A stretch of 64,000 bases of DNA from an uncultured Alphaproteobacteria bacterium (GTDB taxonomy: Bacteria > Pseudomonadota > Alphaproteobacteria > HIMB59 > GCA-002718135), in assembly GCA_902597015.1 (NCBI GenBank), contig CACJWQ010000001.1, forward strand, positions 4,520 through 68,519. Direction: 5' to 3'. Shown piece by piece: positions 5,233 through 53,144 of the stretch. Numbering within the stretch: the first letter of the stretch is position 1; every line of letters starts with the position of its first letter. Below the pieces are notes generated by a model. It made no database searches. It was given only the letters and a program-made list of their open reading frames with translations, and was not told the origin of the DNA. The position numbers and the translations under genes were made by a program.

Positions 5233-5895
5233 ATGTTTGGACTAAAAAGTGCATCTTTATTTGGTGATACCAAGAAACTTGAAAGAGAAATTGATGAGTT
5301 TGTCGATATTGTCTCTGAAGTAGGTTTAGTATTCAAATCGATAGTTCCAACTTATCTCAATCATTCTGCCAACGGTAAATTTGAGGAAATGGTTGAAAAA
5401 GTAAAAGACATGGAAAGTAAGGCCGACAAAATTACGAAAGATGTTGAGCATACTCTTTATGAAGAAACACTAATCCCAGATGCAAGAAGTGATGTGTTAC
5501 GACTTCTAGAACACATCGACGAATTAATTGGAATGTACCAAGGGAATTGTTATCACTTCTCTATTCAAAAACCTAATTTTCCAAAAGAGTTTCACCAAGA
5601 TTTAATTGAGTTAACAGAGACTGTTGTAAATTGTGTTGAATCATTATGTTTAACCGTAAGATCATTTTTTAGAGATATTAAATCTGTTAGAGATAATGCA
5701 CATAAAGTTACATTTTATGAAAAAGAATCTGATATAAAATTTAGTTCTCTTGCAAGAAGAATTTTTGACTCTGAATTACCTCTAGATCAAAAAATGCATC
5801 TTCGATATTTTGTAGAGAAGATTGATCGTATTTGTGATCAAGCAGAAGACATAGCTGACGAGGTTCAAATTTACGCTATTAAACGTTCAGTTTAA
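5233..5895 (+). CDS. DUF47 / PhoU-like phosphate-transport regulator (YkaA/TIGR00153-type)
   Basis: 220-aa helical protein ending 6 nt upstream of a PiT gene, the widely conserved DUF47-PiT pair. Confidence 0.8.
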   Translation: MFGLKSASLFGDTKKLEREIDEFVDIVSEVGLVFKSIVPTYLNHSANGKFEEMVEKVKDMESKADKITKDVEHTLYEETLIPDARSDVLRLLEHIDELIGMYQGNCYHFSIQKPNFPKEFHQDLIELTETVVNCVESLCLTVRSFFRDIKSVRDNAHKVTFYEKESDIKFSSLARRIFDSELPLDQKMHLRYFVEKIDRICDQAEDIADEVQIYAIKRSV

Positions 5896-5901
5896 TTTTC
5901 A

Positions 5902-6954
5902 ATGGAAATTACAATTCTAATTTTTTTATTTGGTGGTCTTTTTTTAGGTTGGTCACTTGGCGCCAATGATGCAGCAAATGTTTTTGGAACTGCAGTTGGA
6001 ACACGAATGGTTAGTTTCACAAGTGCAGCAATAATTTGTAGTGTCTTTGTCATTCTAGGTGCAATTATTAGCGGAGCAGGCACAACAGAAACTTTAGGTA
6101 AGTTAGGTGCTATTAATGCATTGCCTGGTGCTTTTGCAGCATGTGTGGCTGCGGGAATATCTGTATATTTAATGACCAAAGTTGGCTTGCCTGTTTCAAC
6201 AACGCAAGCGATTGTTGGAGCAATTGTTGGTTGGAATTTATACACGGGATCTTCAACTAATCTTCAAGTTTTAATTACTATTTTAGGAACATGGATACTC
6301 TGTCCTATAATTGCAGGAGTTATTGCAATGGGTTTATTTACTTTTACAAAAAGAGTTATACTCAATAGAAAGTTACATATTCTCAGACTTGATGCGTATA
6401 CAAGAACAGCTTTACTTTTAGCGGGTGCTTTTGGTGCTTATAGTTTAGGCGCAAACAATATTGCTAATGTAATGGGTGTCTTCGTACCTATATCACCGTT
6501 TACTGATGTTACTATTGGAAATTTATTTGTCTTTTCTTCAAAAGAACAATTATTTCTGCTGGGTGGTTTAGCAATAGCTGTTGGTGTTTTTACTTACTCG
6601 AAAAGAGTTATGTTTACCGTGGGTAATGATCTCTTAAAAATGACACCAGTGGCAGCATTTATTGTTGTTATATCGCATTCTATTGTTTTATTTTTATTTG
6701 CATCCCAGGGTATAAGTGCTTTTTTACAATCTATAAATCTTCCCTCTATACCTTTGGTACCAGTATCAAGTTCCCAAGCTGTTGTTGGTGGCGTAATTGG
6801 AATTGGTCTTTTAAAAGGAGGAAAAGAGGTTCAATGGTCAATTGCGGGTAGAATTTCTTTGGGTTGGATGACGCTACCTATAATTGCAGCTTTAATTTCT
6901 TTAATTGTTTTATTTATTCTAGAAAATATTTTTAATTTAACGGTCTCTTTTTAA
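5902..6954 (+). CDS. pit: Inorganic phosphate transporter, PiT family
   Basis: Duplicated PiT signatures are present: GANDAANVFGTAVGT with GLPVSTTQAIVGA, and GANNIANVMGV with VPVSSSQAVVGG. About 10 TM segments. Confidence 0.9.
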   Translation: MEITILIFLFGGLFLGWSLGANDAANVFGTAVGTRMVSFTSAAIICSVFVILGAIISGAGTTETLGKLGAINALPGAFAACVAAGISVYLMTKVGLPVSTTQAIVGAIVGWNLYTGSSTNLQVLITILGTWILCPIIAGVIAMGLFTFTKRVILNRKLHILRLDAYTRTALLLAGAFGAYSLGANNIANVMGVFVPISPFTDVTIGNLFVFSSKEQLFLLGGLAIAVGVFTYSKRVMFTVGNDLLKMTPVAAFIVVISHSIVLFLFASQGISAFLQSINLPSIPLVPVSSSQAVVGGVIGIGLLKGGKEVQWSIAGRISLGWMTLPIIAALISLIVLFILENIFNLTVSF

Positions 6955-7475
6955 TTAACTGCTCGATAAGAAAAAATAAAATCTTCTTGGATTTTTGACT
7001 CAATAGCTCCTTTTCTTCTTGATCGTACTAGATCAATAGCTTCTTGTTTTTCATAATTAAATTCAACAAGTAAAATCGCAGCTATAGTGCCAGCTCTTCC
7101 TTTTCCTCCACGGCAATGTAAAACTATATTTTTACCATCTATCAATTCGTTCTTTAATAAAACTTTTGTTGTTTCCCATTTATATTTAAAATCTTTATCT
7201 GGTGCTCCCATGTCATAAATGGGTAAATGGTACCAAAGTAATTTATGTTCATAAATATTTTTGACAAACAAAGTTTTATCACACAATTTTTCAAATTCGC
7301 TATCTTCAACAAAAGAAGTAATAGAACTACAATTATTATTTTTAAATATTTCTAATTCGTTTTCTAAAATTGTTTCTTCAAATAAACCATTAGAGTTAAG
7401 GCCTGGAAAAGAAGTTAATATAATTTTGCCTGCAAATGACTTAGAGTCAATAAAATCATAATTGCTAAATTGCAT
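6951..7475 (-). CDS. Cysteine-dependent (dual-specificity/PTP-like) phosphatase
   Basis: C-x5-R P-loop HCRGGKGRAGT, with an upstream YDMGAPD (general-acid Asp region). No signal peptide. Confidence 0.75.
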   Translation of the reverse strand: MQFSNYDFIDSKSFAGKIILTSFPGLNSNGLFEETILENELEIFKNNNCSSITSFVEDSEFEKLCDKTLFVKNIYEHKLLWYHLPIYDMGAPDKDFKYKWETTKVLLKNELIDGKNIVLHCRGGKGRAGTIAAILLVEFNYEKQEAIDLVRSRRKGAIESKIQEDFIFSYRAVN

Positions 7476-8051
7476 TTACGCTTGTTTAGCTAAAAAAGAC
7501 TGTCTTGCTTCTTCTAAATAGGAACGGAAATGTTCAACATCGGGAGTTTTTTTATCTAGAACTTTTGCTAAATCATCAAATCTTCTAAGCTCTACTGCTT
7601 CATCCATAAAAGGTTTGCTGATAAACGCATCTGCTTCTTCTTTTGTGAAAGGACCACCTTGAACTTTTAACGAAAGTTTCGATGCTTCTGATAGGCTATC
7701 ATAATAACCCTCTTCAACACTTGATAAATATCTTTTTGAATCAACATGTGCTCTAATTGGTAAAATAACATCTTCACCAAAATATTTTTTTAAAAAATCA
7801 GCACCTAAGTTTTCATGATGACCATCTTTCCCTTCATGAATGGGATCGCCGTCCTTATAGATAAGGTGGCCAACATCATGCAGTAATGCTGCAGCAATTG
7901 TTGGTCCTGGTAATTTATGTTTTTCAGCAAGTTCAGCACATTGGAGTGCGTGCTCAAGCTGGGTCACATCCTCATTACCATATTGAATATCAGCACCTTT
8001 TGTTTTCAAAAGATCTAAGAGATAATCTACAATATTTTCTTCCATTCTCAT
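7476..8051 (-). CDS. phnZ: HD-domain protein of the PhnZ family (phosphonate-cleaving diiron oxygenase-like)
   Basis: Motifs LEHALQCAELA, AALLHDVGH, HHENLGADFL, RAHVDSKRYL and SLKVQGGPF are present. They are colinear with the PhnZ motifs as I recall them (QLEHSLQCA, ALLHDLGH, HEKVGADYL, HVAAKRYL, YQGGPM). The gene is divergent from phnW. Confidence 0.65.
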   Translation of the reverse strand: MRMEENIVDYLLDLLKTKGADIQYGNEDVTQLEHALQCAELAEKHKLPGPTIAAALLHDVGHLIYKDGDPIHEGKDGHHENLGADFLKKYFGEDVILPIRAHVDSKRYLSSVEEGYYDSLSEASKLSLKVQGGPFTKEEADAFISKPFMDEAVELRRFDDLAKVLDKKTPDVEHFRSYLEEARQSFLAKQA

Positions 8052-8139
8052 TTATAATTAACTTATTAGAAAATAAATTCAATTACAACTTTAATAAGAT
8101 TGATCAAATTTATAATAATATTTATTAAGTAAATATTTA

Positions 8140-9237
8140 ATGGATAAAAAATTATTAACCCCTGGGCCTCTCACGACATCGATGTCAACAAAAGAGGCTA
8201 TGCTTCATGATTGGGGTTCGAGAGATACAAAATTTATTGATCTCAATGCATCAATTAGAGATTCCCTTGTTAAATTAATAGATGGTGAAGATAAATATCA
8301 ATGTGTTCCAATGCAGGGAAGTGGAACTTTTGCTGTAGAGTCGATGGTGAGCTCTCTTACTCAAAAAGATTCTAAAATTCTGATTCTGATCAATGGTGCT
8401 TACGGACAAAGAATGAAAAAAATGTGCACATATTTAGGGAGAGATTTTATTGAATATGAAGTTGCTGAACATGAAGTTCATGACATCAATAAAATTGAAG
8501 AGTTAATTGATAGCAACAACTTAACACACGTCTTTGCCGTATATTGTGAAACAACATCGGGTATTTTAAATCCTATTGAAGACATTGCAAAATTGGTTGA
8601 AAAGAAAAATTTATCGTTATTCATCGATGCAATGAGTGCCTTTGGTGCATTACCTTTAAGTTCTAAAATAATTAATTTTGATGCTGTAGCCGCTTCATCA
8701 AACAAATGCTTAGAAGGTGTGCCAGGTGTTGGTTTCATTCTTGTTAAAAATGAAGTTATTCAAAATGCAAAAGGCAATAGTCACTCACTAAGTCTAGACT
8801 TATATGATCAATGGCAAGCAATGGAAAAAAATAAACAATGGCGATTTACACCTCCTACACACGTATTGGCTGCATTCAATCAAGCGATTGAGGAACATAA
8901 ACAACAAGGTGGTGTAGAGGGAAGAGGTAAAAGATATAAAAAAAATTGTCAAATTATTTGTAATGGAATGAAAGAGTTGGGATTTGAGCAACTACTTCCT
9001 GATAATTTGCAAGCACCAATTATTATTACGTTTAAACAACCTAATGATCCTAAGTTTAACTTTGAGAAATTTTATAATGCTCTTAGTGAAAAAGATTTTT
9101 TAATTTATCCAGGAAAACTAACAGTGGCAGAAACTTTTAGAATTGGGTGTATTGGTAATTTAGATGAACAAGACATGATGGATACAATAAAAGCTGTAAA
9201 AGAAGTCGTTACTGAATTGGGATTAACATTAAACTAA
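8140..9237 (+). CDS. phnW: 2-aminoethylphosphonate:pyruvate aminotransferase
   Basis: Class-V aminotransferase of 365 aa with the PhnW-type N-terminus LLTPGPLTTSMSTKEAMLHDWGSRDTKF. A PLP-Lys region lies around SSNKCLEGVPG. Confidence 0.85.
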   Translation: MDKKLLTPGPLTTSMSTKEAMLHDWGSRDTKFIDLNASIRDSLVKLIDGEDKYQCVPMQGSGTFAVESMVSSLTQKDSKILILINGAYGQRMKKMCTYLGRDFIEYEVAEHEVHDINKIEELIDSNNLTHVFAVYCETTSGILNPIEDIAKLVEKKNLSLFIDAMSAFGALPLSSKIINFDAVAASSNKCLEGVPGVGFILVKNEVIQNAKGNSHSLSLDLYDQWQAMEKNKQWRFTPPTHVLAAFNQAIEEHKQQGGVEGRGKRYKKNCQIICNGMKELGFEQLLPDNLQAPIIITFKQPNDPKFNFEKFYNALSEKDFLIYPGKLTVAETFRIGCIGNLDEQDMMDTIKAVKEVVTELGLTLN

Positions 9238-9244
9238 CAAAATA

Positions 9245-9877
9245 ATGACAAAAGAAATTGAAATACCATTAGTTAAAGCAACAAATGAAAATCTTAAAGG
9301 ATACGGATATTTAATCGATAGTTTTGAAAATAGTGATATTGAAATTGTTACTTGGCCAAAACAAGGATGGCGCGAAATAGAAGAGGGAACTGGTAATGAA
9401 GGTGGAACTACCGAAGGTTCTTTTGATACATGGTGGCAAGGTGACGTGCTTTATGGACAAAATAATGCTGTCCAACATAAGAGTGATTATGAAGTAGATG
9501 GAAAATATATACTGGGTTATGCCAATAATCCTGATCAAGAATTACAGAAAGATAAATATTCAGATCCAACAAAAATATTTCTATGGCATGCAAATTATCA
9601 TCCTGATGGAGGTCAGCTTTTTTTTCCTACAGAAAATAAACCATTTATTTGTCCTTTAGCCTTACCAACAGACGACATTGAACCAGAACATTTCAAAGCA
9701 TTTTATTGTGACGGATCAAAAGGTTTATATATTCATCCAAATATTTGGCATGAAGGGGTGTTTCCAGTTTCAGAAAAACAATCATTTCAAGGAAAACAAG
9801 GTAAAGTACATGCAAGAGTTAGCATCGACTTAAAGGAAGAGTTTAACAAATATATTTACTTTAAGACTAATATTTAA
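9245..9877 (+). CDS. Ureidoglycolate-lyase-like / cupin-like protein of unknown function, co-operonic with phnW
   Basis: Starts 7 nt after phnW. The N-terminus PLVKATNENLKGYGYLI and the C-terminal block QLFFPTENKPFICPLAL...FYCDGSKGLYIHPNIWHEGVFP resemble AllA-type ureidoglycolate lyase (PLSxEAFxxYGxVI; GVNYHRNVWHHPLF). The assignment is tentative. Confidence 0.5.
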   Translation: MTKEIEIPLVKATNENLKGYGYLIDSFENSDIEIVTWPKQGWREIEEGTGNEGGTTEGSFDTWWQGDVLYGQNNAVQHKSDYEVDGKYILGYANNPDQELQKDKYSDPTKIFLWHANYHPDGGQLFFPTENKPFICPLALPTDDIEPEHFKAFYCDGSKGLYIHPNIWHEGVFPVSEKQSFQGKQGKVHARVSIDLKEEFNKYIYFKTNI

Positions 9878-11319
9878 CTATATTCTTTAGAATAAAAGCT
9901 TGAAAATAAGATTGGTTGATCAAGATTTACATAATCAGTTTTAAGTTGGATAATTTTTTTTAAAACTTTTTCATCATTTCCCATATACGCAATCATAGAT
10001 TTTATATTCTTTTGTTTTAAAATATTTAATTCTTCTAGCTTATCTCTAAGGGTATATTCAATTATTTTAGGATTATAATTTTCAATTATTTCATTTAATG
10101 TATCAAAGTCTTGTCTCCTTAGCATATAATTTAAATTGGGATTAAAATTTATAATATCCATCATTATGTTTTTGTTTTCAGACCAAAAAAAACATTTTTC
10201 TAAATAATTAAATTTATTAATTGTATTAATTACATCATCTACTTTTCCATCTTTAATTTCAGCATATAAATTACCGTTATATAGTTCAACAATTTCTAAT
10301 ATTTCTTCTAATTTGGGAATTTGCTGATTTGTAAAATCTGAATTAAATTTTTTTCCTATTTCAATTTTATCTAAACTTGAAGAAAGAGTTTGATTGACGT
10401 ATCCTTTATAATTTGAAGTTCTATTAAAAGTAGAGTCGTGATTAATTATTAATTTTTTATCTGCTGTTGTTCTAATATCAATTTCTACATGAGAGAAACC
10501 AAATGATAATGCAAGTAAAGTTGATGCCAGTGAATTTTCTGGTGCTAGACTATTAAGTCCACGATGACATACAACTTCAACTGGCCATTCACTATTATTT
10601 TTAAAAATTGGATTAACAAGTTCTGGTTGATTAGAACAAATACCTAATACGGGTAAATTCCTTAATATCTTCATTCTTTCTGGGTTTTCTTCATGCCATA
10701 TAACTACTTTTTGATTTTTCTTTTCACACTTTTGAAAGAAATTATCGTCTAATAATTTTTCAGGATTCTCTAATTTTTCCCAGCACAAATGAATAATATC
10801 AGCACTCTCAGCATACTCAAATGGATTGAAACCAGAAGGAACGAGAATGGCGTAAGGATAAGAACTATCAAGTTTTTTTAATTCCTTTATTAACTCTATA
10901 TTAAATGAACCAATAATTACTCTTTGATAATTATATTTTTTTAGTAATTTAATTAGCAGATTAGAAACATATCTAGCTTTAATGTCGAGATAAATTCCTA
11001 TATTTAGTTTTATTGCAAGTTTAAGAACATCTTCAAAAAGAGGTGCAGTGTTTATAGGTAGCTTAGTTCTTATTTCTTGAAGATACAAATTAATAATATT
11101 TTCACCAGTATCTAGGATTGAATCATGAAAAACAATTAGATGTTTGTCTTTGGTTATTTGTACATCAACCTCCCAAAAATCTGCACCAATTTTAGCAGCA
11201 AAGAAAAAGGATTCTATTGTATTTTCTTGATAATAAGCGCTTGCTCCTCTGTGCGCAATAGAGTAGGGTTTATGAGGACTTAACCAATTTTCATTTGAGT
11301 CTTTTTCCATTTTTATCAA
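9874..11319 (-). CDS. Tandem glycerophosphodiester phosphodiesterase (two GDPD domains in one polypeptide)
   Basis: Two GDPD N-terminal signatures are present: SIAHRGASAYYQENTIESF...EVDVQITKDKHLIVFHD (aa ~20-66) and VCHRGLNSLAPENSLAS...EIDIRTTADKKLIINHD (aa ~251-295). This is the last gene of the Ugp-like operon. Confidence 0.85.
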   Translation of the reverse strand: MIKMEKDSNENWLSPHKPYSIAHRGASAYYQENTIESFFFAAKIGADFWEVDVQITKDKHLIVFHDSILDTGENIINLYLQEIRTKLPINTAPLFEDVLKLAIKLNIGIYLDIKARYVSNLLIKLLKKYNYQRVIIGSFNIELIKELKKLDSSYPYAILVPSGFNPFEYAESADIIHLCWEKLENPEKLLDDNFFQKCEKKNQKVVIWHEENPERMKILRNLPVLGICSNQPELVNPIFKNNSEWPVEVVCHRGLNSLAPENSLASTLLALSFGFSHVEIDIRTTADKKLIINHDSTFNRTSNYKGYVNQTLSSSLDKIEIGKKFNSDFTNQQIPKLEEILEIVELYNGNLYAEIKDGKVDDVINTINKFNYLEKCFFWSENKNIMMDIINFNPNLNYMLRRQDFDTLNEIIENYNPKIIEYTLRDKLEELNILKQKNIKSMIAYMGNDEKVLKKIIQLKTDYVNLDQPILFSSFYSKEYS

Positions 11320-12343
11320 ATAACAGTAAACCTTCTTTCATGATTCCCCAATTAACATCACTGTTTAATTCAACTCTATTTTCTGATGGCTGAATTGATC
11401 TTATGGTTATATTATTATTAAAACTAACATCATACAAATCCTCTCGTCCTTGTGTTTCAACAAATGTAATTTTTCCAGAAACTTTATTTTCATATTGTGG
11501 ACCAAAATGCTCGGGTCTGACACCTAAAACAATTTCTGTATTTTCTGATATATTTAAATTAGTATTTAGATTAATTTTTAAATTGCCAGAAATAAACATT
11601 CCATTATTAAAAACTCCATTAATGAAAGATATTGGTGGATTACCAATGAAGCCAGCAACAAACTTATCTATTGGATTTTTATACATTTCATCTGGAGTAG
11701 ATAATTGAATAATTTTTCCATCCTTCATTAAAGCAATTCTATCGCACATCGACATTGCTTCAACTTGATCATGTGTTACAAGAATTGCAGTGATTCCAGT
11801 TTCTTTTTGTATTCTTTTTATTTCAGAACGCATTTCTAATCTAAGTTTAGCGTCTAGGTTGGCAAGGGGCTCATCCAACAATAATACATCTGGTTCTCTG
11901 ATTAATGCTCTCGCTAATGCTACTCGTTGTTGCTGGCCACCTGAAAGTTGTGCGGGCTTTCTTTTAAGTAATTCGGGTATGTAGACAAGATTAGCTATCT
12001 CTTGAACCTTTTCATCAACAATTTTTGAGTCAAGTTTTTTTAATTTTAATGGAAACGCAATATTTTCGTAAACAGTCATATGTGGATACAAAGCATAGTT
12101 TTGAAAAACCACACCAACATTTCTTTTTTGGGAAGGCACATTTGACATATCTTTTTGATCAAATAAAAGTTTACCTGAATTCATTCTGTAAATTCCACAT
12201 ATAGAAAAAAGTGTTGTAGATTTTCCACATCCTGATGGACCTAAAAGTGCTAACATTTCTCCACTATGTACAGTAAGATCTAAATTTTCAATTACAGAAA
12301 CAGGACCAAAAGATTTACTAAATTTTTCTAAAACTAATTTCAT
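11291..12343 (-). CDS. ABC transporter ATPase, MalK/UgpC type
   Basis: Walker A GPSGCGKST, signature LSGGQQQR, Walker B LLLDEPLANLD. A C-terminal MalK-like regulatory domain is present. Confidence 0.85.
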   Translation of the reverse strand: MKLVLEKFSKSFGPVSVIENLDLTVHSGEMLALLGPSGCGKSTTLFSICGIYRMNSGKLLFDQKDMSNVPSQKRNVGVVFQNYALYPHMTVYENIAFPLKLKKLDSKIVDEKVQEIANLVYIPELLKRKPAQLSGGQQQRVALARALIREPDVLLLDEPLANLDAKLRLEMRSEIKRIQKETGITAILVTHDQVEAMSMCDRIALMKDGKIIQLSTPDEMYKNPIDKFVAGFIGNPPISFINGVFNNGMFISGNLKINLNTNLNISENTEIVLGVRPEHFGPQYENKVSGKITFVETQGREDLYDVSFNNNITIRSIQPSENRVELNSDVNWGIMKEGLLLFDKNGKRLK

Positions 12344-13170
12344 TATCCTTTTGTACCTCCTCCGTATATATTCATTAATTTTTTTTGAAACACTATGTAA
12401 ATAATAATAACTGGAATGGCATAGAATGTTCCAACTGATTTAAATAAATTAAAATCAAACTTGTTGTCATCAAGTATAAGTGCAGAAAGATAGGTTGATA
12501 GTACTTGTACATCACTACTTGGTGCCAGAACTAGAGGTAGTACAAATTCACTCCATCCTGATAAAAAAGAAAAAATTAGTAAAGCGGCAATTCCAGGCTG
12601 TACTTGAGGTAAAATAAGTTTTCGCCAAACAGTAAACCTGCTTGCACCATCTTGAATGCCAGCCATTTCAATTTCCCAAGGAACTGTATCGTAAAATCCT
12701 TTCATTATCCAAACACCGAATGGTAATTCTAAAGCTGATTTCACAAGTATGACGCCTAATAGGGTATTGTACAAACCCATGATTTGTAAGGTTAAAAAGA
12801 TAGCAACTATAAGAGAAATAGTTGGGAAAGCATGCAACATTATTAAACCGGCAAGAAAAATTTTTCTTCCGGGAATATCTAAACGAGAAAGAACATATCC
12901 TGATGTCATGGATAGTGAGGTAACCATAATTGAGGTTGTGCTTGCAAAAATAAAGGTGTTAAAAGTTACAGTCCAAATATAGGACTCACCTGTTTTTGGT
13001 GTTTCCCATAAAAAACGCCAATGCTCTAATGTAAAACTACTTGGCCAAATACCGCCAGGAGCAGGATTTGTGAAATTATCTATTATCTGAAAAATGAACA
13101 TTATTAATAGTGGCAAAGAAATTAATGTAAGTAGCAATGTTATTGGCCAAGAACGATAATAATTATTCAT
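12343..13170 (-). CDS. CUT1 ABC permease (UgpE-like)
   Basis: 6-TM MalG/UgpE-like permease with EAA loop EIEMAGIQDGASRFTVWRKLILP. The start/stop is shared with its neighbours. Confidence 0.85.
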   Translation of the reverse strand: MNNYYRSWPITLLLTLISLPLLIMFIFQIIDNFTNPAPGGIWPSSFTLEHWRFLWETPKTGESYIWTVTFNTFIFASTTSIMVTSLSMTSGYVLSRLDIPGRKIFLAGLIMLHAFPTISLIVAIFLTLQIMGLYNTLLGVILVKSALELPFGVWIMKGFYDTVPWEIEMAGIQDGASRFTVWRKLILPQVQPGIAALLIFSFLSGWSEFVLPLVLAPSSDVQVLSTYLSALILDDNKFDFNLFKSVGTFYAIPVIIIYIVFQKKLMNIYGGGTKG

Positions 13171-14472
13171 TTATCCCTCAATCCTAGGTTTAGTTACTAG
13201 GTCCTTAAAGTTAAAAAATTTCAAATAGAATAAGCTAGCAATTATTCCTATTATTACTAAGACCAAAGCATAAGTAGCGCCTAAGCCATATTGTAAATTA
13301 CCTGCATAATTTTGCAGTGCTGTGTGATACGCAGCTAAAGCCCAAACTTCGGTGGATCTACCTGGTCCTCCATTTGTAGCTAATAAAATGTATTCAAATG
13401 AAGTTAATAATGACAAAGTTTGATAGGCCGTTGTAAACATTATTGGCCATCTTAATTGAGGAATTATTATATTCCATATTTGTTGCCATCTGTTTGCACC
13501 ATCAACCTCAGATGCATATAACATTGATGATGGTATGGCCTTTATTGCCGACGAAAATAGTATCATTCCAAAAGATGCTCCAACAAATCCATTAATTAAT
13601 ACTATAACTGTCCAAGCATGAATTGGAGAATCCATCATCCAATTTTTTGGTGATGCACCAAAGTAAGTTGACATTTGTGAAATAAATCCAGTGTCCCAAG
13701 TGAACCATTTCCACATCAGAACATATAGTACAGGAGGAAGTATCCTTGGCAAAAACCAAATAGTCCTGAAAGTAGAAGCCGTTTTTGATGGTAAATAAAA
13801 CGTAGAAATTGCAAGAAACAAACCAAAAACTACATTGAATGTTAAAGTAAAAGAGACATAAATAAGTGTATAAAATGCAAACTTATAAGAAGATGGTAAA
13901 TTATAAATTAATTTGAAATTATTATTAGTCCAAGACCAACCAGTATAACTTTCTTTAATAATTACTTCTCTATCATTTTGGTTTATTTCAAGCTTTATTA
14001 AATTTTCCTCAAAAATAGACTTGCTAACAAACCTTTCATTAATAATTGATTCTTTAAATATTTCAGCGATTTCTTTTCTATCACGTGTTTTTTTAATTTT
14101 ATTCTTTTTTAATTTTTTAAGTGCTCTCTCTAAATCTTTTCTATTTGAAAATTTGTCACCAAAATATAAAGACTTAATTTCGTTTGATAGAGATTCTTTA
14201 TATTTTTCACTTATAATTTTTAAACCTTCTTCATTAATTGAGTACCCAGCATTTTCAAGTTTTTCAATAGTATCTTTTTGAATATTATATTTTTTTATTT
14301 CTTTAATTGTTTCTTGATTAATTAAATACTCTCCTCCTTTTATGCCTGTTGATGTTGACATATTTGTAAATGAAAAAAAAGCAGTCATAACAACTGGCGT
14401 TAGAAAAAATAATAAAACCATTATTAGTACTGGAGATATAAAAATAAAACCAAACCAGTTTATTCTATTCAT
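13171..14472 (-). CDS. CUT1 ABC permease (UgpA/MalF-like) with ~150-aa K/E-rich insertion after TM1
   Basis: EAA loop YASEVDGANRWQQIWNIIIPQL. At 433 aa it exceeds the usual ~290 aa because of an insert (GGEYLINQETIKEIKK...IIKESYTGWSW) between the first two TM segments. Confidence 0.8.
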   Translation of the reverse strand: MNRINWFGFIFISPVLIMVLLFFLTPVVMTAFFSFTNMSTSTGIKGGEYLINQETIKEIKKYNIQKDTIEKLENAGYSINEEGLKIISEKYKESLSNEIKSLYFGDKFSNRKDLERALKKLKKNKIKKTRDRKEIAEIFKESIINERFVSKSIFEENLIKLEINQNDREVIIKESYTGWSWTNNNFKLIYNLPSSYKFAFYTLIYVSFTLTFNVVFGLFLAISTFYLPSKTASTFRTIWFLPRILPPVLYVLMWKWFTWDTGFISQMSTYFGASPKNWMMDSPIHAWTVIVLINGFVGASFGMILFSSAIKAIPSSMLYASEVDGANRWQQIWNIIIPQLRWPIMFTTAYQTLSLLTSFEYILLATNGGPGRSTEVWALAAYHTALQNYAGNLQYGLGATYALVLVIIGIIASLFYLKFFNFKDLVTKPRIEG

Positions 14473-14529
14473 AATTTTTTATAAAATTAACAGGAGTGAA
14501 ATTCACTCCTGTTTATTATTTGTAAAGTA

Positions 14530-15876
14530 TTATCTAACTAGTAAATCATCTCCAAGTTTTGAAGATAATTCGCTTTCAAGATCATTTACTGCATCAGCGG
14601 CAGATTTAGAACCAGTCCACACAGACTCTAAACCAGCCCACATAGCTTCTGAAAATACACCATATTGTAAATGGTTAGGTTGAGCATTAGCTGACCCTAA
14701 AAGTACTTCAGTTGCTTCTGCAGCCCATTGGTCATTTGCATAAAGTCCAACATTAGATTGTTGTTTAGAAATACCTAAGTGTGCAGATTCAATAGCATGT
14801 AAAGAATTGATTCGAGGCTCAGAAGCAATCTTTACAAGCTGAGATGCGATATCTTGTAAATCCTCATCATTTTGATTTGTTACAAGATAAACTAGAGGAT
14901 GCGTAATGGTATTTGCTCTGCCTCTGTCATTTCCTGCTGGAATAAGAGTGAATTGAATTGTTCCGAAGAAATCATCATTTCCTTCTTTTCCAGTGTATCT
15001 AGCATAGTGCCATGTTCCACCATGCCAAAAAGCAGCTTTACCATTTGCAACTTCATTGTACCATTGTCCCCAATCAGTACCGATATGATTTTTCTTTGTC
15101 ACTCCTGCAGCAACTGCATCCGCAAAGAATTGATAAAATTCTTGCATTGAAGCTTTATCTAACAATAGTTTACCTGATGCAGAGTCCATTAACTCACCTC
15201 CAAACGATTGATAGAATTGAGCATAATCAGGACCATTAGACACTCTAGGGTAAAAACCATAACCCTCTTCTACTAATCCCATTGATACAGCTTTCTTTGC
15301 ATCTTCAAGAACATTAGCTAGAGTATAATCACCAGAAGCAACTTTAGAAGGTAGTGCATCAATATCACTATCCGAGTAACCAATACCTTTTAGATATTCC
15401 TTCCAAAAGAAGAAAGGTCTACTTTCTGCATCTTGAGGAAGACCATATTGTATTCCGTTGTAAGCTGCAATTTCCATTAAATTGTCATAAATATCATTCA
15501 ATGGCCAAGCATCCATATCAAGATAATCTTCCACAGGAACAATGTAACCTGCTTGACTCCATGGTGCTATGTCAAGGTGACTTGTAACAACTATATTAGG
15601 AGCTGATCCATCTTCAGCTGCTAGGGTAACAGCTTGTTTAAACTCTCCCCATCCACCAAAGTCTCTCTTACCTTCTACAGTTATGTTAATCTCTTCCCCT
15701 TGTATTGCCATTTCACGAGTAAGTATATCAGCAGCCATCTTGATTGCTTCCATTCTATAGTAGTCAGCTTCGTTAGTTCCTCCTGCCCATACTGTAATTT
15801 TTACATCTTTAGCTACAGCATAACTAAAACTAAATAGAGTTATAAGAAATGCTATAAAAATTTTTTTAATATTCAT
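14530..15876 (-). CDS. Family-1 periplasmic substrate-binding protein (UgpB-like; glycerophosphodiester/G3P inferred from operon)
   Basis: Signal peptide MNIKKIFIAFLITLFSFSYAVA. 448-aa acidic SBP and first gene of the operon ending in the tandem GDPD. Confidence 0.75.
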   Translation of the reverse strand: MNIKKIFIAFLITLFSFSYAVAKDVKITVWAGGTNEADYYRMEAIKMAADILTREMAIQGEEINITVEGKRDFGGWGEFKQAVTLAAEDGSAPNIVVTSHLDIAPWSQAGYIVPVEDYLDMDAWPLNDIYDNLMEIAAYNGIQYGLPQDAESRPFFFWKEYLKGIGYSDSDIDALPSKVASGDYTLANVLEDAKKAVSMGLVEEGYGFYPRVSNGPDYAQFYQSFGGELMDSASGKLLLDKASMQEFYQFFADAVAAGVTKKNHIGTDWGQWYNEVANGKAAFWHGGTWHYARYTGKEGNDDFFGTIQFTLIPAGNDRGRANTITHPLVYLVTNQNDEDLQDIASQLVKIASEPRINSLHAIESAHLGISKQQSNVGLYANDQWAAEATEVLLGSANAQPNHLQYGVFSEAMWAGLESVWTGSKSAADAVNDLESELSSKLGDDLLVR

Positions 15877-16136: not shown

Positions 16137-16934
16137 ATGAAAATATTGCACTTATCAGATCCTCATATTGAACCTGATATTTTACACGGAATAGACTCGC
16201 AATTAAGGTTTAAAAAAGCGTTAGAGCATATTAAAAAAAATCATTTAGACTCAGATTTGTTTGTAATATCAGGAGATATTACACACTTTGGAGGCGAAGG
16301 CGCATACGAGATATTTTTAGACATTGTAAAAGAGGCAGATTTACCGGAAAAACTATTTCCAAAATTAATTATAGGTAATCATGATAACAGAGAGAATTTT
16401 AAAAAATATTTTACTGCAGTTAAAAATGATGAAAATGGTTTCATTCAATACATTGAGACTATTGAAAATAAACTTTTTATTTTTTTAGATACCAATGAAC
16501 CAAAAACAGATAGCGGTTACTTTTGTGAAAGTAGGCAAAGATGGTTTGAAAATCAATTAGAAAAAGGAATAGACAAAAGTATATATATTTTTATGCATCA
16601 TAATCCTCTTGCACTTGCAGATAAAAATAGTGATAAAATAGGTCTTGTTCAAAAAGATAAATTTGAAAAAATATTATTAAAGTATAATAAAAATATCAAA
16701 CACTTATTTTTTGGACACCAGCATATTACTGTATCAGGTCAATACTTAGGTATTACATTTTCTTCACCACGAAGTACATGGTCTCCTTTAGTTTCAAACT
16801 TCTCAAATAAATATCGTTTAGGAACAGCAAATACTGATCCAAATTATAATGTTGTTTTAATAAAAGAAAATTCTTTAGTAGTGCATAGCGAAGACTTTTT
16901 AAAAACAGAAGTCAATTGGTTCGAGAGTGAATAA
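16137..16934 (+). CDS. Class-III metallophosphodiesterase (CpdA/Icc/GpdQ-like)
   Basis: Motifs HLSDPHI, ISGDITHFG, IGNHDNRE, FMHHNP and FGHQHIT are present. Confidence 0.8.
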   Translation: MKILHLSDPHIEPDILHGIDSQLRFKKALEHIKKNHLDSDLFVISGDITHFGGEGAYEIFLDIVKEADLPEKLFPKLIIGNHDNRENFKKYFTAVKNDENGFIQYIETIENKLFIFLDTNEPKTDSGYFCESRQRWFENQLEKGIDKSIYIFMHHNPLALADKNSDKIGLVQKDKFEKILLKYNKNIKHLFFGHQHITVSGQYLGITFSSPRSTWSPLVSNFSNKYRLGTANTDPNYNVVLIKENSLVVHSEDFLKTEVNWFESE

Positions 16935-18043: not shown

Positions 18044-18045
18044 TA

Positions 18046-19158: not shown

Positions 19159-19162
19159 TACC

Positions 19163-27551: not shown

Positions 27552-27565
27552 ATTCTTATCTACTG

Positions 27566-52813: not shown

Positions 52814-53144
52814 TTAGTGATTCAGCTCCATATTTTTTTGCTACAGCTGTTTTATTAATTGTAATTTTAGCTTTTTTTATTTTAAATTTTTTTTCAAGAG
52901 CATTGGATGTTTTTATTATTAAATTCTCAAGAGTATGTGATTGAGATTCCTTTATGAAAGTTTTTAAATATTTAGTAATAGATGAATAATCCTTCACATT
53001 ATTTATATTATTTAAATCTAGTGAGTTTTTAATAGGATAACTAAATTCTAATGTTACCTTTAATAACTGTTTTTTCTTTCGCTCTTGAGCAGTGATACCT
53101 ATGTTTGCACTGATGGATAAGTTTTTAATTTCTACTTTGAACAT
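52800..53144 (-). CDS. folB: Dihydroneopterin aldolase
   Basis: 114 aa. The N-terminal IKNLSISANIGITAQERKKKQLLKVTLEF fits the FolB pattern. It sits between folP and folK with overlaps. Confidence 0.7.
   Translation of the reverse strand: MFKVEIKNLSISANIGITAQERKKKQLLKVTLEFSYPIKNSLDLNNINNVKDYSSITKYLKTFIKESQSHTLENLIIKTSNALEKKFKIKKAKITINKTAVAKKYGAESLSVSN

What the first reader, a model, noticed from the sequence alone, without database searches (positions are those of the whole stretch)
7476..9877. PhnZ-like HD oxygenase next to phnW with no PhnY*-type hydroxylase; a ureidoglycolate-lyase-like cupin sits in the operon instead
Seen: an HD-domain ORF colinear with PhnZ motifs is divergently transcribed from phnW. 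A 210-aa protein follows phnW after a 7-nt gap. Its N- and C-terminal blocks resemble AllA-type ureidoglycolate lyase, and it carries His-rich beta-barrel-like motifs (WHANYHPDGG, IHPNIWHEG). No 2-oxoglutarate/Fe(II) (PhyH-like) dioxygenase is present anywhere in the window.

Established: PhnZ and TmpB cleave the C-P bond only of 1-hydroxylated 2-amino(alkyl)phosphonates, which are made by a partner 2OG dioxygenase (PhnY*, TmpA).

Inference, three options:
- the cupin-like protein supplies the missing activating step (a new partner type);
- this HD enzyme acts on an environmentally supplied 1-hydroxyphosphonate;
- the partner is encoded elsewhere.

The cupin could also act on a PhnW product or substrate analogue.
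Basis: partly seen in the sequence, partly recalled or inferred. Interest (0 to 1): 0.65.

Follow-up and report, generated by a model that had tools for sequence, protein, structure and literature searches.

The report
Unknown cupin in aminophosphonate operons
A small barrel-fold enzyme of unknown job shares an operon with phosphonate-degrading genes in SAR11-type ocean bacteria and many other lineages, so it is probably an undescribed helper in aminophosphonate breakdown rather than a stand-in for the "missing" hydroxylase.

Summary
An HD protein (7476-8051, -) has all six PhnZ/TmpB diiron ligands and the YxxE substrate loop. It is divergent from a bona fide phnW (8140-9237, +), and a 210-aa AllA-fold cupin (9245-9877, +) follows 7 nt later. 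No 2OG/Fe(II) oxygenase lies in the 64 kb.

The interpretation needs revising in three ways.
- **PhnW is not orphaned.** PhnY (phosphonoacetaldehyde dehydrogenase), PhnA and a PhpC-like HEP dehydrogenase lie 9-15 kb downstream.
- **A lone HD is ordinary.** Its closest relatives sit alone in C-P lyase or PhnWAY clusters, so it most likely uses pre-hydroxylated (R)-1-hydroxy-2-aminoethylphosphonate.
- **The cupin is not a true AllA.** It scores 22-34 bits against equivalog cut-offs of 160-315. It belongs to a large clade (at least 597 species) found repeatedly in operons with aminophosphonate genes: phnW (SAR11, Betaproteobacteria), tmpA-tmpB (Rhodobacteraceae), pbfA/phnW, the AEP transporter, PhnX-like and FAD oxidoreductases.

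Because the cupin sits beside a genuine TmpA hydroxylase, and also occurs with PhnW but no HD, it is unlikely to replace PhnY*. The best reading is an uncharacterised metal-dependent lyase-type accessory enzyme of aminophosphonate catabolism. Its substrate is unknown, and no paper in the searched library links it to phosphonates.

The parts
5233..6954 (+). PhoU_div regulator-like gene plus PHO4/PitA-type phosphate transporter; left edge of the phosphorus-scavenging island
   Evidence: Pfam PF01865 79.3 bits and PF01384 207.4 bits. Syntenic in SAR11-type loci.
6951..7475 (-). Dual-specificity/PTP-type phosphatase, directly downstream of the HD gene with no intergenic gap
   Evidence: Pfam PTP-SAK 47.5 bits. 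The HD stop codon at 7476-7478 abuts the ATG at 7475. Conserved next to the HD gene in SAR11 loci.
7476..8051 (-). PhnZ/TmpB-family HD-domain mixed-valent diiron oxygenase (TIGR03276 type) with no adjacent 2OG oxygenase
   Evidence: TIGR03276 201.2 bits against cut-off 214.6. PDB TmpB 7e-31 and PhnZ 6e-29, both full length. Ligands H34, H58, D59, H79, H102, D159 and the Y24-x-x-E27 loop are present (roles from PMC8177086).
8052..8139 (.). 88-nt AT-rich divergent intergenic region between the HD gene and phnW
   Evidence: Sequence read. Promoter-like matches are no more frequent than in shuffled sequence.
8140..9237 (+). phnW, 2-aminoethylphosphonate:pyruvate transaminase
   Evidence: NF010006 512.5 bits (cut-off 296) and TIGR03301 467.4 bits (cut-off 360.8).
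9245..9877 (+). 210-aa AllA-fold cupin of a distinct clade, probably co-transcribed with phnW; proposed accessory enzyme of aminophosphonate catabolism
   Evidence: PF04115 41.9 bits over residues 119-182 only; AllA equivalog models 22-34 bits against cut-offs 160-315. AF2 pLDDT 93.2 and Foldseek best hits are AllA structures. More than 4152 homologues. At least 597 species, with recurrent phosphonate contexts.
9593..9616 (+). NYHPDGGQ, the family signature. It is the cupin motif-1 equivalent, with invariant H119, nearly invariant D121 and Q124 (invariant in the narrower 16-sequence set), and N117 conserved in at least 90% of that set
   Evidence: Alignments A1 and A2. Aligns to AllA E-R-H-P-L-G-T-Q. 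Coordinates.
9731..9757 (+). IHPNIWHEG, containing the invariant W168-H169 (cupin motif-2 equivalent, shared with AllA 'VWHH')
9874..15876 (-). Tandem-GDPD glycerophosphodiester phosphodiesterase plus Ugp-like ABC transporter. This is a variable cassette inserted between the cupin and the metallophosphoesterase
   Evidence: Pfam GDPD 165.8 bits and SBP_bac_1. Present in the window, L006, L023 and L037; absent in most close relatives, where the cupin is followed directly by the metallophosphoesterase.
16137..16934 (+). Calcineurin-like metallophosphoesterase. In most SAR11 relatives it is the gene immediately after the cupin on the same strand
   Evidence: Pfam Metallophos 57.3 bits; SpdA model 170 bits against cut-off 400. 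Synteny.
18046..19158 (-). PhpC-like iron alcohol dehydrogenase (phosphonate-associated; probable 2-hydroxyethylphosphonate dehydrogenase)
   Evidence: TIGR03405 367.1 bits against cut-off 423.7. Function of the class from PMC13576164.
21719..24399 (-). phnY (phosphonoacetaldehyde dehydrogenase, 21719-23161) and phnA (phosphonoacetate hydrolase, 23158-24399). They complete the PhnW-PhnY-PhnA route
   Evidence: TIGR03250 798.4 bits (cut-off 635.65) and TIGR02335 468.1 bits (cut-off 407.55).
24576..28414 (+). ABC transporter (ATPase and two permeases) plus a phn_DUF6 EamA-type membrane protein associated with phosphonate use
   Evidence: NCBIfam UgpC/PhnT2-like 387 and 305 bits; TIGR03340 141.8 bits, below its cut-off.

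Best explanation
The region is part of a SAR11-type phosphorus-scavenging island with three separable elements.

1. PhnW feeds phosphonoacetaldehyde to PhnY and PhnA, encoded 12-15 kb downstream. A PhpC-like dehydrogenase probably brings in 2-hydroxyethylphosphonate. This is the known PhnWAY hydrolytic route, and it does not need the HD enzyme.

2. The HD protein is a PhnZ/TmpB-family mixed-valent diiron oxygenase that works without a dedicated 2OG hydroxylase. It most likely cleaves imported, already hydroxylated (R)-1-hydroxy-2-aminoethylphosphonate, or an N-methylated analogue, to glycine (or a betaine) plus phosphate. This is inferred from the conserved ligands, the amine-binding YxxE loop and the stand-alone contexts of its closest relatives.

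3. The 210-aa protein is not an AllA orthologue. It belongs to a separate, very widespread clade of the AllA/PF04115 cupin superfamily that behaves as a recurrent accessory gene of aminophosphonate catabolism. It is operonic with phnW, with tmpB (tmpA present), with pbfA/phnW, with the AEP ABC transporter, and with PhnX-like and FAD oxidoreductase genes.

By analogy with Ni-dependent AllA and the related accessory cupins DUF4867 and KdgF, I infer a metal-dependent lyase. Its probable metal site is H119, D121, Q124 and H169. It would break a C-X bond at a hydroxyl-bearing carbon of an AEP-related compound, for example a hemiaminal, hydrate or 1-hydroxy species, releasing an aldehyde.

Shown: the gene identities, the fold and the co-occurrence. 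Inferred: the metal site, the reaction type and the substrate.
For: PhnWAY route in the window. HEP dehydrogenase class.

HD protein:
- Motifs and structural homologues. The roles of the YxxE loop and the ligands come from PMC8177086.
- The closest HD relatives (47-52% identity) stand alone. They occur in C-P lyase operons of Variovorax and Nostoc, next to a phospholipase C, or in a PhnS2T2U2-PhnW / PhnA-PhnY cluster (L044).
- The literature already draws phnZ in hydrolytic clusters as an R-HAEP enzyme.

Cupin, family and fold:
- AllA equivalog models are failed by a factor of 5-10.
- Distinct conserved set: R43, Y88, H119, D121, Q124, W168, H169, Q185, H189, E199.
- AllA fold.
- AllA is Ni-dependent (PMC3793230). 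DUF4867 is an accessory metallo-cupin in sulfoglycolysis (PMC11968277).

Cupin, genomic context:
- At least 597 species carry it.
- phnW-cupin with a 4-12 nt gap or a 4-nt overlap in SAR11, L039, L044 and L063.
- tmpA (597-599 bits, cut-off 400) - tmpB (341-362 bits, cut-off 300) - cupin in Ruegeria, Leisingera and Amylibacter; tmpB and the cupin overlap by 4 nt in Ruegeria L066.
- MttB-like - DMGDH-like - cupin next to phnW - pbfA (pbfA 670 bits, cut-off 525).
- Cupin followed by PhnS2T2U2 (L046).
- PhnX-like - cupin - FAD oxidoreductase (L057) and phnW - cupin - TIGR03364 (L063).
- 18 of 43 non-SAR11 loci are phosphonate-linked, and these are scattered over all major clades of the cupin tree.

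Aldehyde-handling partners elsewhere:
- A Glyoxalase/VOC fusion (P0234).
- A GFA-family protein and a succinate-semialdehyde dehydrogenase as neighbours.
- A GhrA-like reductase as neighbour.
Against: - No substrate or activity is known for any member of the cupin clade. The reaction type rests on fold analogy only.
- More than half of the non-SAR11 loci show no phosphonate gene nearby. Some contexts suggest other chemistry. Examples are allantoate-amidohydrolase-type M20 and dihydropyrimidinase genes in Sneathiella-like genomes, a PLP decarboxylase, and a GNAT.
- No single chemical species is common to all the phosphonate contexts. PhnW handles AEP and phosphonoacetaldehyde; TmpB handles OH-TMAEP and glycine betaine.
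- I could not read the model coordinates, so the proposed metal site was not checked in three dimensions.
- For the HD protein, a PhnY*/TmpA gene elsewhere in the genome cannot be excluded. Its TIGR03276 score also falls just below the cut-off.
Confidence: 0.5

Rival explanations
1. First reader's option 1. The cupin is a new kind of activating partner. It generates the 1-hydroxyphosphonate that the HD oxygenase cleaves, by 2OG-independent hydroxylation or by a non-oxidative route. HD plus cupin would then form a complete two-enzyme C-P cleavage pathway.
For: - TmpB-equivalog HD plus cupin pairs have no TmpA within 10 kb in L050, L064 and L082.
- HD and cupin share one island in SAR11 and L044, with no 2OG oxygenase.
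- tmpB and the cupin overlap by 4 nt.
- The clade has an H119-x-D121 ... H169/H189 pattern that AllA lacks, since AllA has Leu at the Asp position.
Against: - Seven loci carry a bona fide TmpA in the same operon as TmpB and the cupin. TmpA plus TmpB is described as catalysing the whole pathway, with no third component mentioned (review statements in PMC8177086 and PMC10574752).
- The cupin is paired with phnW where no HD lies within 10 kb (L037, L043) or within the shorter stretch sampled (L039).
- HD proteins of this type often have neither a 2OG partner nor a cupin.
- There is no hit to any oxygenase family. The closest fold is a lyase.
- No conserved basic residue follows the distal His, where 2OG oxygenases bind their co-substrate.
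Confidence: 0.12
2. The cupin conditions the 1-hydroxy-2-amino(alkyl)phosphonate pool for the R-specific enzymes PhnZ-like HD, TmpB and PbfA. For example it could act as a racemase or epimerase on the S-enantiomers, as a non-homologous counterpart of PbfF.
For: - The well-sampled phosphonate loci nearly all contain an enzyme that consumes an (R)-1-hydroxy compound. These are the HD protein (SAR11, L044), TmpB (10 Rhodobacteraceae loci) and PbfA (L071, L081).
- A dedicated S-HAEP racemase, PbfF, exists in other AEP clusters, so the need is real (PMC12366243).
- The fold belongs to the RmlC-like cupins, which include epimerases.
Against: - The C1-H of a 1-hydroxyphosphonate is not acidic. PbfF needs transient NAD-dependent oxidation to racemise it (PMC12366243; the proton-acidity point is from general chemical knowledge).
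- The cupin has no nucleotide-binding domain.
- L039, L043 and L046 show neither an HD protein nor PbfA.
- AllA itself is a lyase, not an epimerase.
Confidence: 0.1
3. The cupin is simply a divergent ureidoglycolate lyase of purine/ureide catabolism, and its position next to phnW is incidental gene packing in a streamlined genome.
For: - Pfam PF04115 is above its gathering score.
- The fold is AllA.
- In Sneathiella-type genomes the upstream gene matches an allantoate-amidohydrolase subfamily model (687 bits, cut-off 452), and a dihydropyrimidinase lies nearby.
- In L070 a GhrA-like glyoxylate reductase follows the cupin.
Against: - All eight AllA models are failed by a wide margin (22-34 bits against cut-offs 160-315).
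- Only 64 of the 162 profile positions match, and the protein is about 45 residues longer than AllA.
- The Glu two residues before the conserved His is Asn, and the Leu two residues after it is Asp.
- No ureide gene is present in the window.
- Operonic linkage to phosphonate genes recurs in at least 7 unrelated lineages. Chance would give well under one such locus. That expectation is my own estimate, not a computed value.
Confidence: 0.07
4. This rival concerns the HD protein only. Its PhnY*/TmpA-type partner exists elsewhere in the genome, so the pathway is the ordinary two-step oxidative route with unlinked genes.
For: - It cannot be excluded from a 64-kb window.
- Unlinked partners do occur in streamlined genomes (general knowledge).
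- TmpB-type genes without an adjacent TmpA (L050, L064, L082) could have the same explanation.
Against: - No PhyH/TauD/GBBH-type hit was found in the window or in about 40 SAR11-type loci, each spanning up to 20 kb.
- HD proteins of this clade recur without a partner in unrelated genomes.
- Characterised PhnY*-PhnZ and TmpA-TmpB pairs are adjacent.
Confidence: 0.2

Closest known systems
AllA, Ni2+-dependent (S)-ureidoglycolate urea-lyase (EC 4.3.2.3; Pfam PF04115; PDB 1xsq, 1yqc, 2bdr)
   Same: - Same fold: Foldseek E 1e-9 to 5e-8.
- Shared core motifs H-P-x-G-x-Q and W-H, plus an N-terminal 'P..a....YG..i' block.
- Probably a metal-dependent lyase that acts at a hydroxyl-bearing carbon (inference).
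   Different: - 13-16% identity in the structural alignment.
- About 45 residues longer.
- Fails every AllA equivalog model.
- Asn replaces the Glu two residues before the conserved His, and Asp replaces the Leu two residues after it.
- Additional conserved residues: R43, Y88, Q185, H189, E199.
- The genomic context is aminophosphonate catabolism, not ureide catabolism.
DUF4867 (SqvB/SftX), a cupin metalloprotein of sulfoglycolysis clusters (PDB 9gyy)
   Same: - Next-best structural match (E 1e-4).
- Also an AllA-related cupin that recurs in catabolic clusters for an organo-sulfonate where every core step already has an enzyme.
- Function still enigmatic (PMC11968277).
   Different: - A different family, with a 2His-2Glu metal site.
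- Associated with sulfosugar pathways.
- No detectable sequence similarity by phmmer or profile search.
[quoted passage not shown]
   Same: The window's HD protein shares the whole fold, the six ligands, H62 and the YxxE loop (PMC8177086).
   Different: - About 36-38% identity to either characterised enzyme.
- No adjacent PhnY*/TmpA.
- Belongs to the TIGR03276 core clade, whose members sit alone in C-P lyase or PhnWAY clusters.
- Substrate not established.
The 'Pbf' ancillary enzymes of AEP clusters (PbfA lyase, PbfB-D FAD enzymes, PbfF racemase, PbfG/PhpC dehydrogenases)
   Same: The same genomic behaviour. The gene recurs, taxonomically scattered, inside phnWX/phnWAY-type clusters. Genes of this kind widen the range of AEP-related substrates (PMC8154272, PMC10590968, PMC12366243, PMC13576164).
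   Different: - Unrelated fold and no organic-cofactor domain.
- Also linked to the oxidative tmpAB operon.
- Not mentioned in any of these papers, nor in the one supplementary file that could be searched.
PhnY* / TmpA, the 2OG/Fe(II) hydroxylases that make the HD substrates
   Same: Only the position in the operon next to an HD oxygenase, and an HxD...H-like residue pattern.
   Different: - No PhyH/TauD/2OG-FeII_Oxy signal.
- Different fold neighbours.
- Coexists with a genuine TmpA in one operon.

Membership tests
[quoted passage not shown] | HD-domain fold with the H...HD...H...H...D diiron ligand set | tested here: met
   PF01966 34.1 bits. H34, H58, D59, H79, H102 and D159 are in register with PhnZ and TmpB.
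[quoted passage not shown] | YxxE substrate-gating loop (Tyr binds Fe2; Glu binds the substrate amine) | tested here: met
   Y24-G-N-E27 aligns with PhnZ Y24/E27 and TmpB Y30/E33. Residue roles from PMC8177086.
[quoted passage not shown] | Score above a curated family cut-off (TIGR03276, TmpB or PhnZ1 equivalogs) | tested here: not met
   TIGR03276 201.2 bits against 214.6 (marginal). TmpB 151.6 and PhnZ1 153.4 bits against 300. The 52%-identical L044 homologue passes TIGR03276 with 235.6 bits.
[quoted passage not shown] | Adjacent 2OG/Fe(II) hydroxylase partner (PhnY* or TmpA) | tested here: not met
   None in 64 kb. The characterised systems have it adjacent.
[quoted passage not shown] | O2-dependent cleavage of a 1-hydroxyphosphonate to a carboxylate plus phosphate | not testable with these tools
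   Needs an enzyme assay.
PhnW (for ORF 8140-9237) | Score above the equivalog cut-offs for AEP:pyruvate transaminase | tested here: met
   NF010006 512.5 bits (cut-off 296), TIGR03301 467.4 bits (360.8), TIGR02326 461.4 bits (400.8).
AllA ureidoglycolate lyase, EC 4.3.2.3 (for ORF 9245-9877) | Pfam PF04115 above the gathering score, matching over the whole domain | tested here: inconclusive
   41.9 bits is above the 23-bit threshold, but only profile positions 76-139 of 162 match. The N-terminal block is detected only weakly.
AllA ureidoglycolate lyase, EC 4.3.2.3 (for ORF 9245-9877) | Score above the NCBIfam AllA equivalog or subfamily cut-offs | tested here: not met
   Eight models give 22.0-34.1 bits against cut-offs of 160-315. 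The Ruegeria homologue scores 48 bits against 230.
AllA ureidoglycolate lyase, EC 4.3.2.3 (for ORF 9245-9877) | AllA-type cupin fold | tested here: met
   AF2 pLDDT 93.2. Foldseek top five hits are AllA structures, E 1e-9 to 5e-8, target-normalised TM 0.62-0.73.
AllA ureidoglycolate lyase, EC 4.3.2.3 (for ORF 9245-9877) | Core motif E-x-H-P-x-G-x-Q ... W-H-H as in E. coli AllA | tested here: inconclusive
   H119, P120, G122, Q124, W168 and H169 are kept. The Glu two residues before the His is Asn117, Leu is Asp121, and the second His of WHH is Glu or Gln. Which AllA residues bind Ni is not known to me.
AllA ureidoglycolate lyase, EC 4.3.2.3 (for ORF 9245-9877) | Genomic association with allantoin/ureide catabolic genes | tested here: not met
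   None in the window. Seen only in the Sneathiella-type lineage.
AllA ureidoglycolate lyase, EC 4.3.2.3 (for ORF 9245-9877) | Ni2+-dependent release of urea and glyoxylate from (S)-ureidoglycolate | not testable with these tools
   Needs an enzyme assay (method in PMC3793230).
2OG/Fe(II) oxygenases of the PhnY*/TmpA type (considered for ORF 9245-9877) | Match to the PhyH, TauD or 2OG-FeII_Oxy families | tested here: not met
   No such Pfam or NCBIfam hit at E <= 0.01. tblastn with PhyH-, TauD- and GBBH-type queries does not hit this ORF.
2OG/Fe(II) oxygenases of the PhnY*/TmpA type (considered for ORF 9245-9877) | HxD/E...H facial triad plus a conserved Arg/Lys after the distal His for the 2OG C5 carboxylate | tested here: inconclusive
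   H119-P-D121 and H169/H189 are conserved. R191 after H189 is not (the consensus there is Cys). The only invariant Arg is R43. The three-dimensional geometry was not checked.
Ancillary 'phosphonate breakdown factor' genes (operational class) | Recurrent, taxonomically scattered presence inside aminophosphonate catabolic clusters | tested here: met
   Operonic with phnW, tmpAB, pbfA, phnS2T2U2, PhnX-like or TIGR03364 genes. Lineages: SAR11, Beta- and Deltaproteobacteria, Arenicellales, Rhodospirillaceae, Rhodobacteraceae and a cyanobacterial MAG.

The most novel reading that the evidence does not exclude
The cupin founds a new class of metal-dependent lyases that act directly on 1-hydroxy-2-amino(alkyl)ethylphosphonates. 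It would use AllA-type chemistry: deprotonate the C1 hydroxyl, collapse to a carbonyl and expel the neighbouring group. This would cleave the C-P bond non-oxidatively, giving an aldehyde plus phosphite.

If true, SAR11 and roseobacters would have an O2-independent route alongside the HD oxygenase, and it would be a biological source of marine phosphite.

The evidence does not exclude this. The cupin co-occurs with three different enzymes that use 1-hydroxy compounds (HD, TmpB, PbfA). Aldehyde-handling partners appear elsewhere: a VOC-domain fusion, and GFA-family, GhrA-like and succinate-semialdehyde dehydrogenase neighbours.

Nothing positively supports it either. No PtxD-like gene lies in any fetched locus (with a query recalled from memory).
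Probability: 0.06. Interest if true: 0.9.

Novelty: new variant of a known kind. Interest (0 to 1): 0.55.

Why it matters
2-Aminoethylphosphonate and its relatives are a major pool of organic phosphorus in the sea. One marine survey attributes 45% of marine phnZ sequences to Pelagibacterales (PMC9381506).

This cupin is translationally linked to phnW in those genomes and is very abundant. The search returned more than 4152 clusters at 90% identity, some with over 1000 member sequences. Yet it is annotated as 'ureidoglycolate lyase' or 'hypothetical', and no phosphonate paper I could search mentions it.

- **Pathway maps.** If it is a catabolic accessory enzyme, current pathway maps and metagenomic marker sets for marine phosphonate turnover lack a step or a substrate.
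- **The tmpAB system.** The operon of the biochemically characterised TmpA/TmpB system has an unexamined third gene in Leisingera and Ruegeria. These organisms are cultivable and probably open to genetics, so the question can be tested directly.
- **Lone phnZ genes.** The lone HD oxygenase is a warning against reading every marine 'phnZ' as evidence of the PhnY*-PhnZ route from AEP.

Tried and rejected
1. **First alignment too diverse.** A 35-sequence alignment could not seed search for related loci. It was rebuilt with 16 sequences sharing NYHPDGGQ.
2. **Literature.** Searches for any link between PF04115, ureidoglycolate lyase or a cupin and phosphonates found nothing relevant. The original TmpAB paper is not held, so I could not check whether its authors noted the third gene.
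3. **Phosphite idea.** tblastn with a P. stutzeri PtxD sequence recalled from memory gave only a 31%-identity partial hit, to the L070 dehydrogenase. That protein is closest to GhrA (38% identity). So there is no PtxD link, and no clear PbfF link either.
4. **HEPD/MPnS-like reading.** This would run PhnW to PhpC to cupin to hydroxymethylphosphonate to HD. I considered it because of the possible His/Gln/His site. I set it aside because no HEPD or MPnS structure is among the top 50 fold matches, the HD protein keeps the amine-binding Glu, and the cupin occurs with TmpAB and without an HD protein.
5. **DMSP-lyase-like beta-elimination.** TMAEP or AEP would give vinylphosphonate. I considered this but found no DddK/Q/W-type fold match and no hydratase partner.
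6. **Promoter and terminator scan of 6900-10000.** Nothing beyond chance.
7. **Model coordinates.** They are not exposed to scripts, so residue clustering around a metal site could not be measured.
8. **Fusions.** Four other long, poorly matching homologues I inspected look like frameshifted gene calls (Arg-rich tails). Only P0234 is a credible fusion.

Full report
**What is in the window.**
The region has about 31% G+C. Loci encoding the cupin at 88-99% amino-acid identity, in the same gene order, come from marine 'uncultured Alphaproteobacteria' single-cell genomes; more distant Pelagibacteraceae copies reach 62-77%. It is therefore a SAR11-type genome. Around the finding the genes read as follows.

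| Coordinates | Strand | Gene |
|---|---|---|
| 5233-6954 | + | PhoU_div and PHO4 phosphate transporter |
| 6951-7475 | - | dual-specificity phosphatase |
| 7476-8051 | - | HD protein |
| 8140-9237 | + | phnW |
| 9245-9877 | + | 210-aa cupin |
| 9874-15876 | - | tandem-GDPD phosphodiesterase and Ugp-like ABC transporter |
| 16137-16934 | + | metallophosphoesterase |
| 16937-18043 | - | 368-aa unknown protein |
| 18046-19158 | - | PhpC-like iron alcohol dehydrogenase |
| 19163-20242 | - | MetE-like protein |
| 20330-21583 | - | solute-binding protein |
| 21719-23161 | - | phnY (phosphonoacetaldehyde dehydrogenase), 798 bits against cut-off 636 |
| 23158-24399 | - | phnA (phosphonoacetate hydrolase), 468 bits against cut-off 408 |
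| 24576-27551 | + | a further ABC transporter |
| 27566-28414 | + | phn_DUF6 membrane protein |

This is a phosphorus-scavenging island.

**Checking the observation.**
The HD gene and phnW are divergent across 88 nt. The cupin starts 7 nt after the phnW stop codon. Both quoted motifs are present.
- The HD protein aligns end to end with the solved TmpB and PhnZ structures. It carries Y24, E27, H34, H58, D59, H62, H79, H102 and D159 in register.
- These residues are the six diiron ligands and the YxxE gating loop that define the oxygenase branch of the HD superfamily (PMC8177086).
- phnW passes three equivalog cut-offs.
- No 2OG/Fe(II) oxygenase is present. Profile scans of nearly every larger ORF gave no PhyH, TauD or 2OG-FeII_Oxy hit.
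- Six-frame tblastn gave nothing at E <= 1e-3. The queries were a PhyH-type PhnY*-like protein and an unassigned 2OG-oxygenase-domain protein from a Rhodococcus phnZ-type locus, plus three TmpA/TauD/GBBH-type proteins.

**PhnW is not an orphan.**
In fact the window encodes the complete PhnW, PhnY, PhnA hydrolytic route. It also encodes a PhpC-like dehydrogenase, a class recently shown to oxidise 2-hydroxyethylphosphonate to phosphonoacetaldehyde (PMC13576164). In more compact relatives these genes lie only 1.7-4.5 kb from the cupin (L001, L029, L033).

**The lone HD oxygenase is ordinary.**
- The closest annotated relatives of this HD protein (47-49% identity) lie inside C-P lyase operons in Variovorax and Nostoc. 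Neither locus has a 2OG oxygenase.
- A Novosphingobium copy sits next to a phospholipase C.
- A betaproteobacterial copy (52% identity, above the TIGR03276 cut-off) lies in a PhnA-PhnY / PhnS2T2U2-PhnW cluster (L044).
- Partnered versions do exist. They are PhyH-HD in Rhodococcus, TauD-HD in Labrenzia and GBBH-HD in Phyllobacterium.
- Recent literature already draws phnZ in hydrolytic clusters as the enzyme for (R)-2-amino-1-hydroxyethylphosphonate. The existence of PbfA and PbfF shows that bacteria meet pre-formed HAEP (PMC8154272, PMC12366243).
- Because the amine-binding Glu is retained, I infer that the enzyme salvages imported (R)-HAEP or an N-methylated analogue. A partner gene elsewhere in the genome cannot be ruled out from 64 kb.

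**The cupin is an AllA-fold protein but not AllA.**
- Pfam PF04115 matches only residues 119-182. The eight NCBIfam AllA models score 22-34 bits against cut-offs of 160-315.
- An AlphaFold model built on 35 diverse homologues is confident (pLDDT 93.2). Its best structural matches are the four AllA structures, then DUF4867, then RmlC-like cupins.
- The family is large. The first search returned more than 4152 clusters at 90% identity. The representative library holds 67 clusters at 50% identity below E = 1e-30.
- Invariant residues are G50, F60, H119, W168 and H169. Nearly invariant residues are W37, P38, R43, Y88, P120, D121, Q124, Q185, H189 and E199.
- Against AllA (E-R-H-P-L-G-T-Q ... V-W-H-H) the clade keeps His, Pro, Gly, Gln and Trp-His. 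It has Asn for the Glu two residues before the His, and Asp for the Leu two residues after it.
- AllA is Ni2+-dependent (PMC3793230). The related DUF4867 protein binds its metal through 2 His and 2 Glu at the equivalent motif positions (PMC11968277).
- A metal site made of H119, D121, Q124 and H169 is therefore a reasonable inference. It is unverified, because I could not read the model coordinates.

**Where the cupin lives.**
A scan of one genome per species found at least 597 species encoding the NYHPDGGQ signature, and the 80 best loci were fetched.

*SAR11-type loci.* In every SAR11-type locus that includes the upstream region, phnW immediately precedes the cupin. The HD gene is usually 1.8 kb away, but it is displaced in L036 and absent within 10 kb in L037.

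*The 43 more distant loci (51-58% identity).*
- Ten Rhodobacteraceae loci (Ruegeria, Leisingera, Amylibacter and one MAG) have a TmpB-equivalog HD gene (341-362 bits, cut-off 300) directly before the cupin; in Ruegeria L066 the two genes overlap by 4 nt.
- Seven of those ten also have a TmpA equivalog (597-599 bits in the two scored, cut-off 400), and six of the seven show a divergent LysR gene. An eleventh locus (L060) has a frameshifted HD remnant.
- L044 and L063 (Betaproteobacteria) and L039 (Pelagibacteraceae) have phnW directly before the cupin. L043 (Arenicellales) has phnW and phnY beside it.
- L071 and L081 (Rhodospirillaceae) have MttB-like, DMGDH-like and cupin genes next to phnW and a PbfA equivalog (670 bits, cut-off 525).
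- L046 (Deltaproteobacteria) has the cupin followed by the AEP transporter PhnS2T2U2.
- L057 (a cyanobacterial MAG) has PhnX-like, cupin and FAD oxidoreductase genes. L063 has phnW, cupin and a TIGR03364 oxidoreductase.

In total 18 of 43 loci are phosphonate-linked. On a neighbour-joining tree these contexts are scattered over all major clades.

*Loci without phosphonate genes.*
- Lineage-specific neighbours include an M20 carbamoylase or 'allantoate amidohydrolase', a dihydropyrimidinase, a PLP decarboxylase, a GNAT and PhaC. Other loci have nothing informative.
- Two observations hint at an aldehyde product. One homologue is fused to a Glyoxalase/VOC domain. In Paraburkholderia the gene lies beside a GFA-family protein and a succinate-semialdehyde dehydrogenase.

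*Option 1: the cupin replaces PhnY\*.* This is disfavoured for four reasons.
- The cupin coexists with a genuine TmpA in one operon.
- TmpA plus TmpB is described as the complete pathway, with no third component mentioned (PMC8177086, PMC10574752).
- The cupin pairs with phnW where no HD gene is near.
- HD proteins of this clade often have neither partner.

The option is not dead. Three TmpB+cupin loci lack TmpA within 10 kb, and the clade has gained an HxD pattern. I give it about 0.12.

*Option 2: an environmentally supplied 1-hydroxyphosphonate.* This is the best reading for the HD protein.

*Option 3: a partner elsewhere.* This remains open, at about 0.2.

**Most likely mechanism.**
I file the cupin as an undescribed accessory enzyme of aminophosphonate catabolism. 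It is probably a metal-dependent lyase of the AllA type: HO-C-X gives O=C plus HX. Its substrate would be an AEP-related compound.
- **Theme among the best-sampled loci.** Most contain an enzyme that consumes an (R)-1-hydroxy-2-amino(alkyl)phosphonate: the HD protein, TmpB or PbfA. A 1-hydroxy species is therefore a prime candidate substrate or product.
- **Alternative substrates.** Hemiaminal or hydrate forms of phosphonoacetaldehyde are the alternative, given the phnW, PhnX-like and FAD-oxidase contexts.
- **Parallel case.** The situation resembles DUF4867 in sulfoglycolysis. That protein is also an AllA-related metallo-cupin, recurrent in clusters whose core steps are all assigned, and still without a function.
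- **Confidence.** About 0.6 that the clade functions in aminophosphonate metabolism. About 0.2 for the specific reaction type.

**Novelty and verdict.**
The HD and phnW parts are known biology. The cupin clade, and its repeated operonic linkage to phnW, tmpAB and pbfA, is not reported in any paper I could search. It is best described as a new variant of a known kind: an AllA-superfamily enzyme recruited to phosphonate catabolism.

It is abundant in the ocean and directly testable in cultivable roseobacters. I score interest at 0.55. It is a solid, unreported lead for specialists, but without a demonstrated new mechanism.

Noticed in passing
window 9874-15876 (compare L001, L004 and most SAR11 loci): The tandem-GDPD phosphodiesterase plus Ugp-like ABC transporter is a variable cassette. 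It is present between the cupin and the metallophosphoesterase in the window, L006, L023 and L037. It is absent in most close relatives, where the cupin is followed directly by the metallophosphoesterase.
   Followed up: partly
window 16937-20242; L089 1136-2287: A 368-aa protein with no clear family (weak methyltransferase hit) and a MetE-like 'cobalamin-independent methionine synthase II' protein flank the PhpC-like dehydrogenase upstream of phnY-phnA. A MetE-like protein (24% identity, E 7e-11) also lies 3 kb upstream of the PhyH-HD pair on a Rhodococcus plasmid. Its role in phosphonate clusters is unexplained.
   Followed up: partly
window 6951-7475: A dual-specificity/PTP-type phosphatase abuts the HD gene with no intergenic gap. 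It is conserved there in SAR11-type loci, which suggests co-transcription with the HD oxygenase. Its substrate is unknown.
   Followed up: no
L087 4823-7406 (Labrenzia plasmid): In Labrenzia the tmpA-tmpB pair is followed by a 281-aa 'alkaline phosphatase family protein' (no NCBIfam hit) in the position that the cupin occupies in Rhodobacteraceae. So the third gene of this operon varies between lineages.
   Followed up: partly
L050, L064, L082 (about 9350-10600 in each): TmpB-equivalog HD genes are followed by the cupin, but no TmpA lies within 10 kb. In L050 the LysR gene sits directly where tmpA lies in related genomes.
   Followed up: partly
protein P0234 (418 aa, from the representative library): A homologue of the cupin is fused to a C-terminal Glyoxalase/VOC domain (PF00903, 59.4 bits). 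Its N-terminal extension and high G+C suggest a eukaryotic or distant origin. Several other homologues also have N-terminal extensions that look like targeting peptides.
   Followed up: partly
window 49049-51633; L090 8281-10549: A DUF1501/DUF1800 gene pair is present in the window. The same pair also lies about 2.7 kb downstream of the GBBH-HD pair on a Phyllobacterium plasmid. This may be coincidence or another phosphorus-related module.
   Followed up: no
L060, about 9560-9870: The HD gene upstream of the cupin appears frameshifted (two tblastn segments in different frames), while the cupin ORF is intact.
   Followed up: no
window 51686-56427: A markedly AT-rich stretch (25-26% G+C against about 31% elsewhere) covers a putative PRAI-like gene (weak Pfam hit) and the folate and p-aminobenzoate biosynthesis genes (folP, pabC-like, pabA and pabB-like; folK and folB recognised by eye).
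   Followed up: no
window 62256-62660: A second, unrelated small cupin (DUF985/Cupin_5, 114.9 bits) lies near the right end of the window. It has no connection to the phosphonate genes.
   Followed up: no
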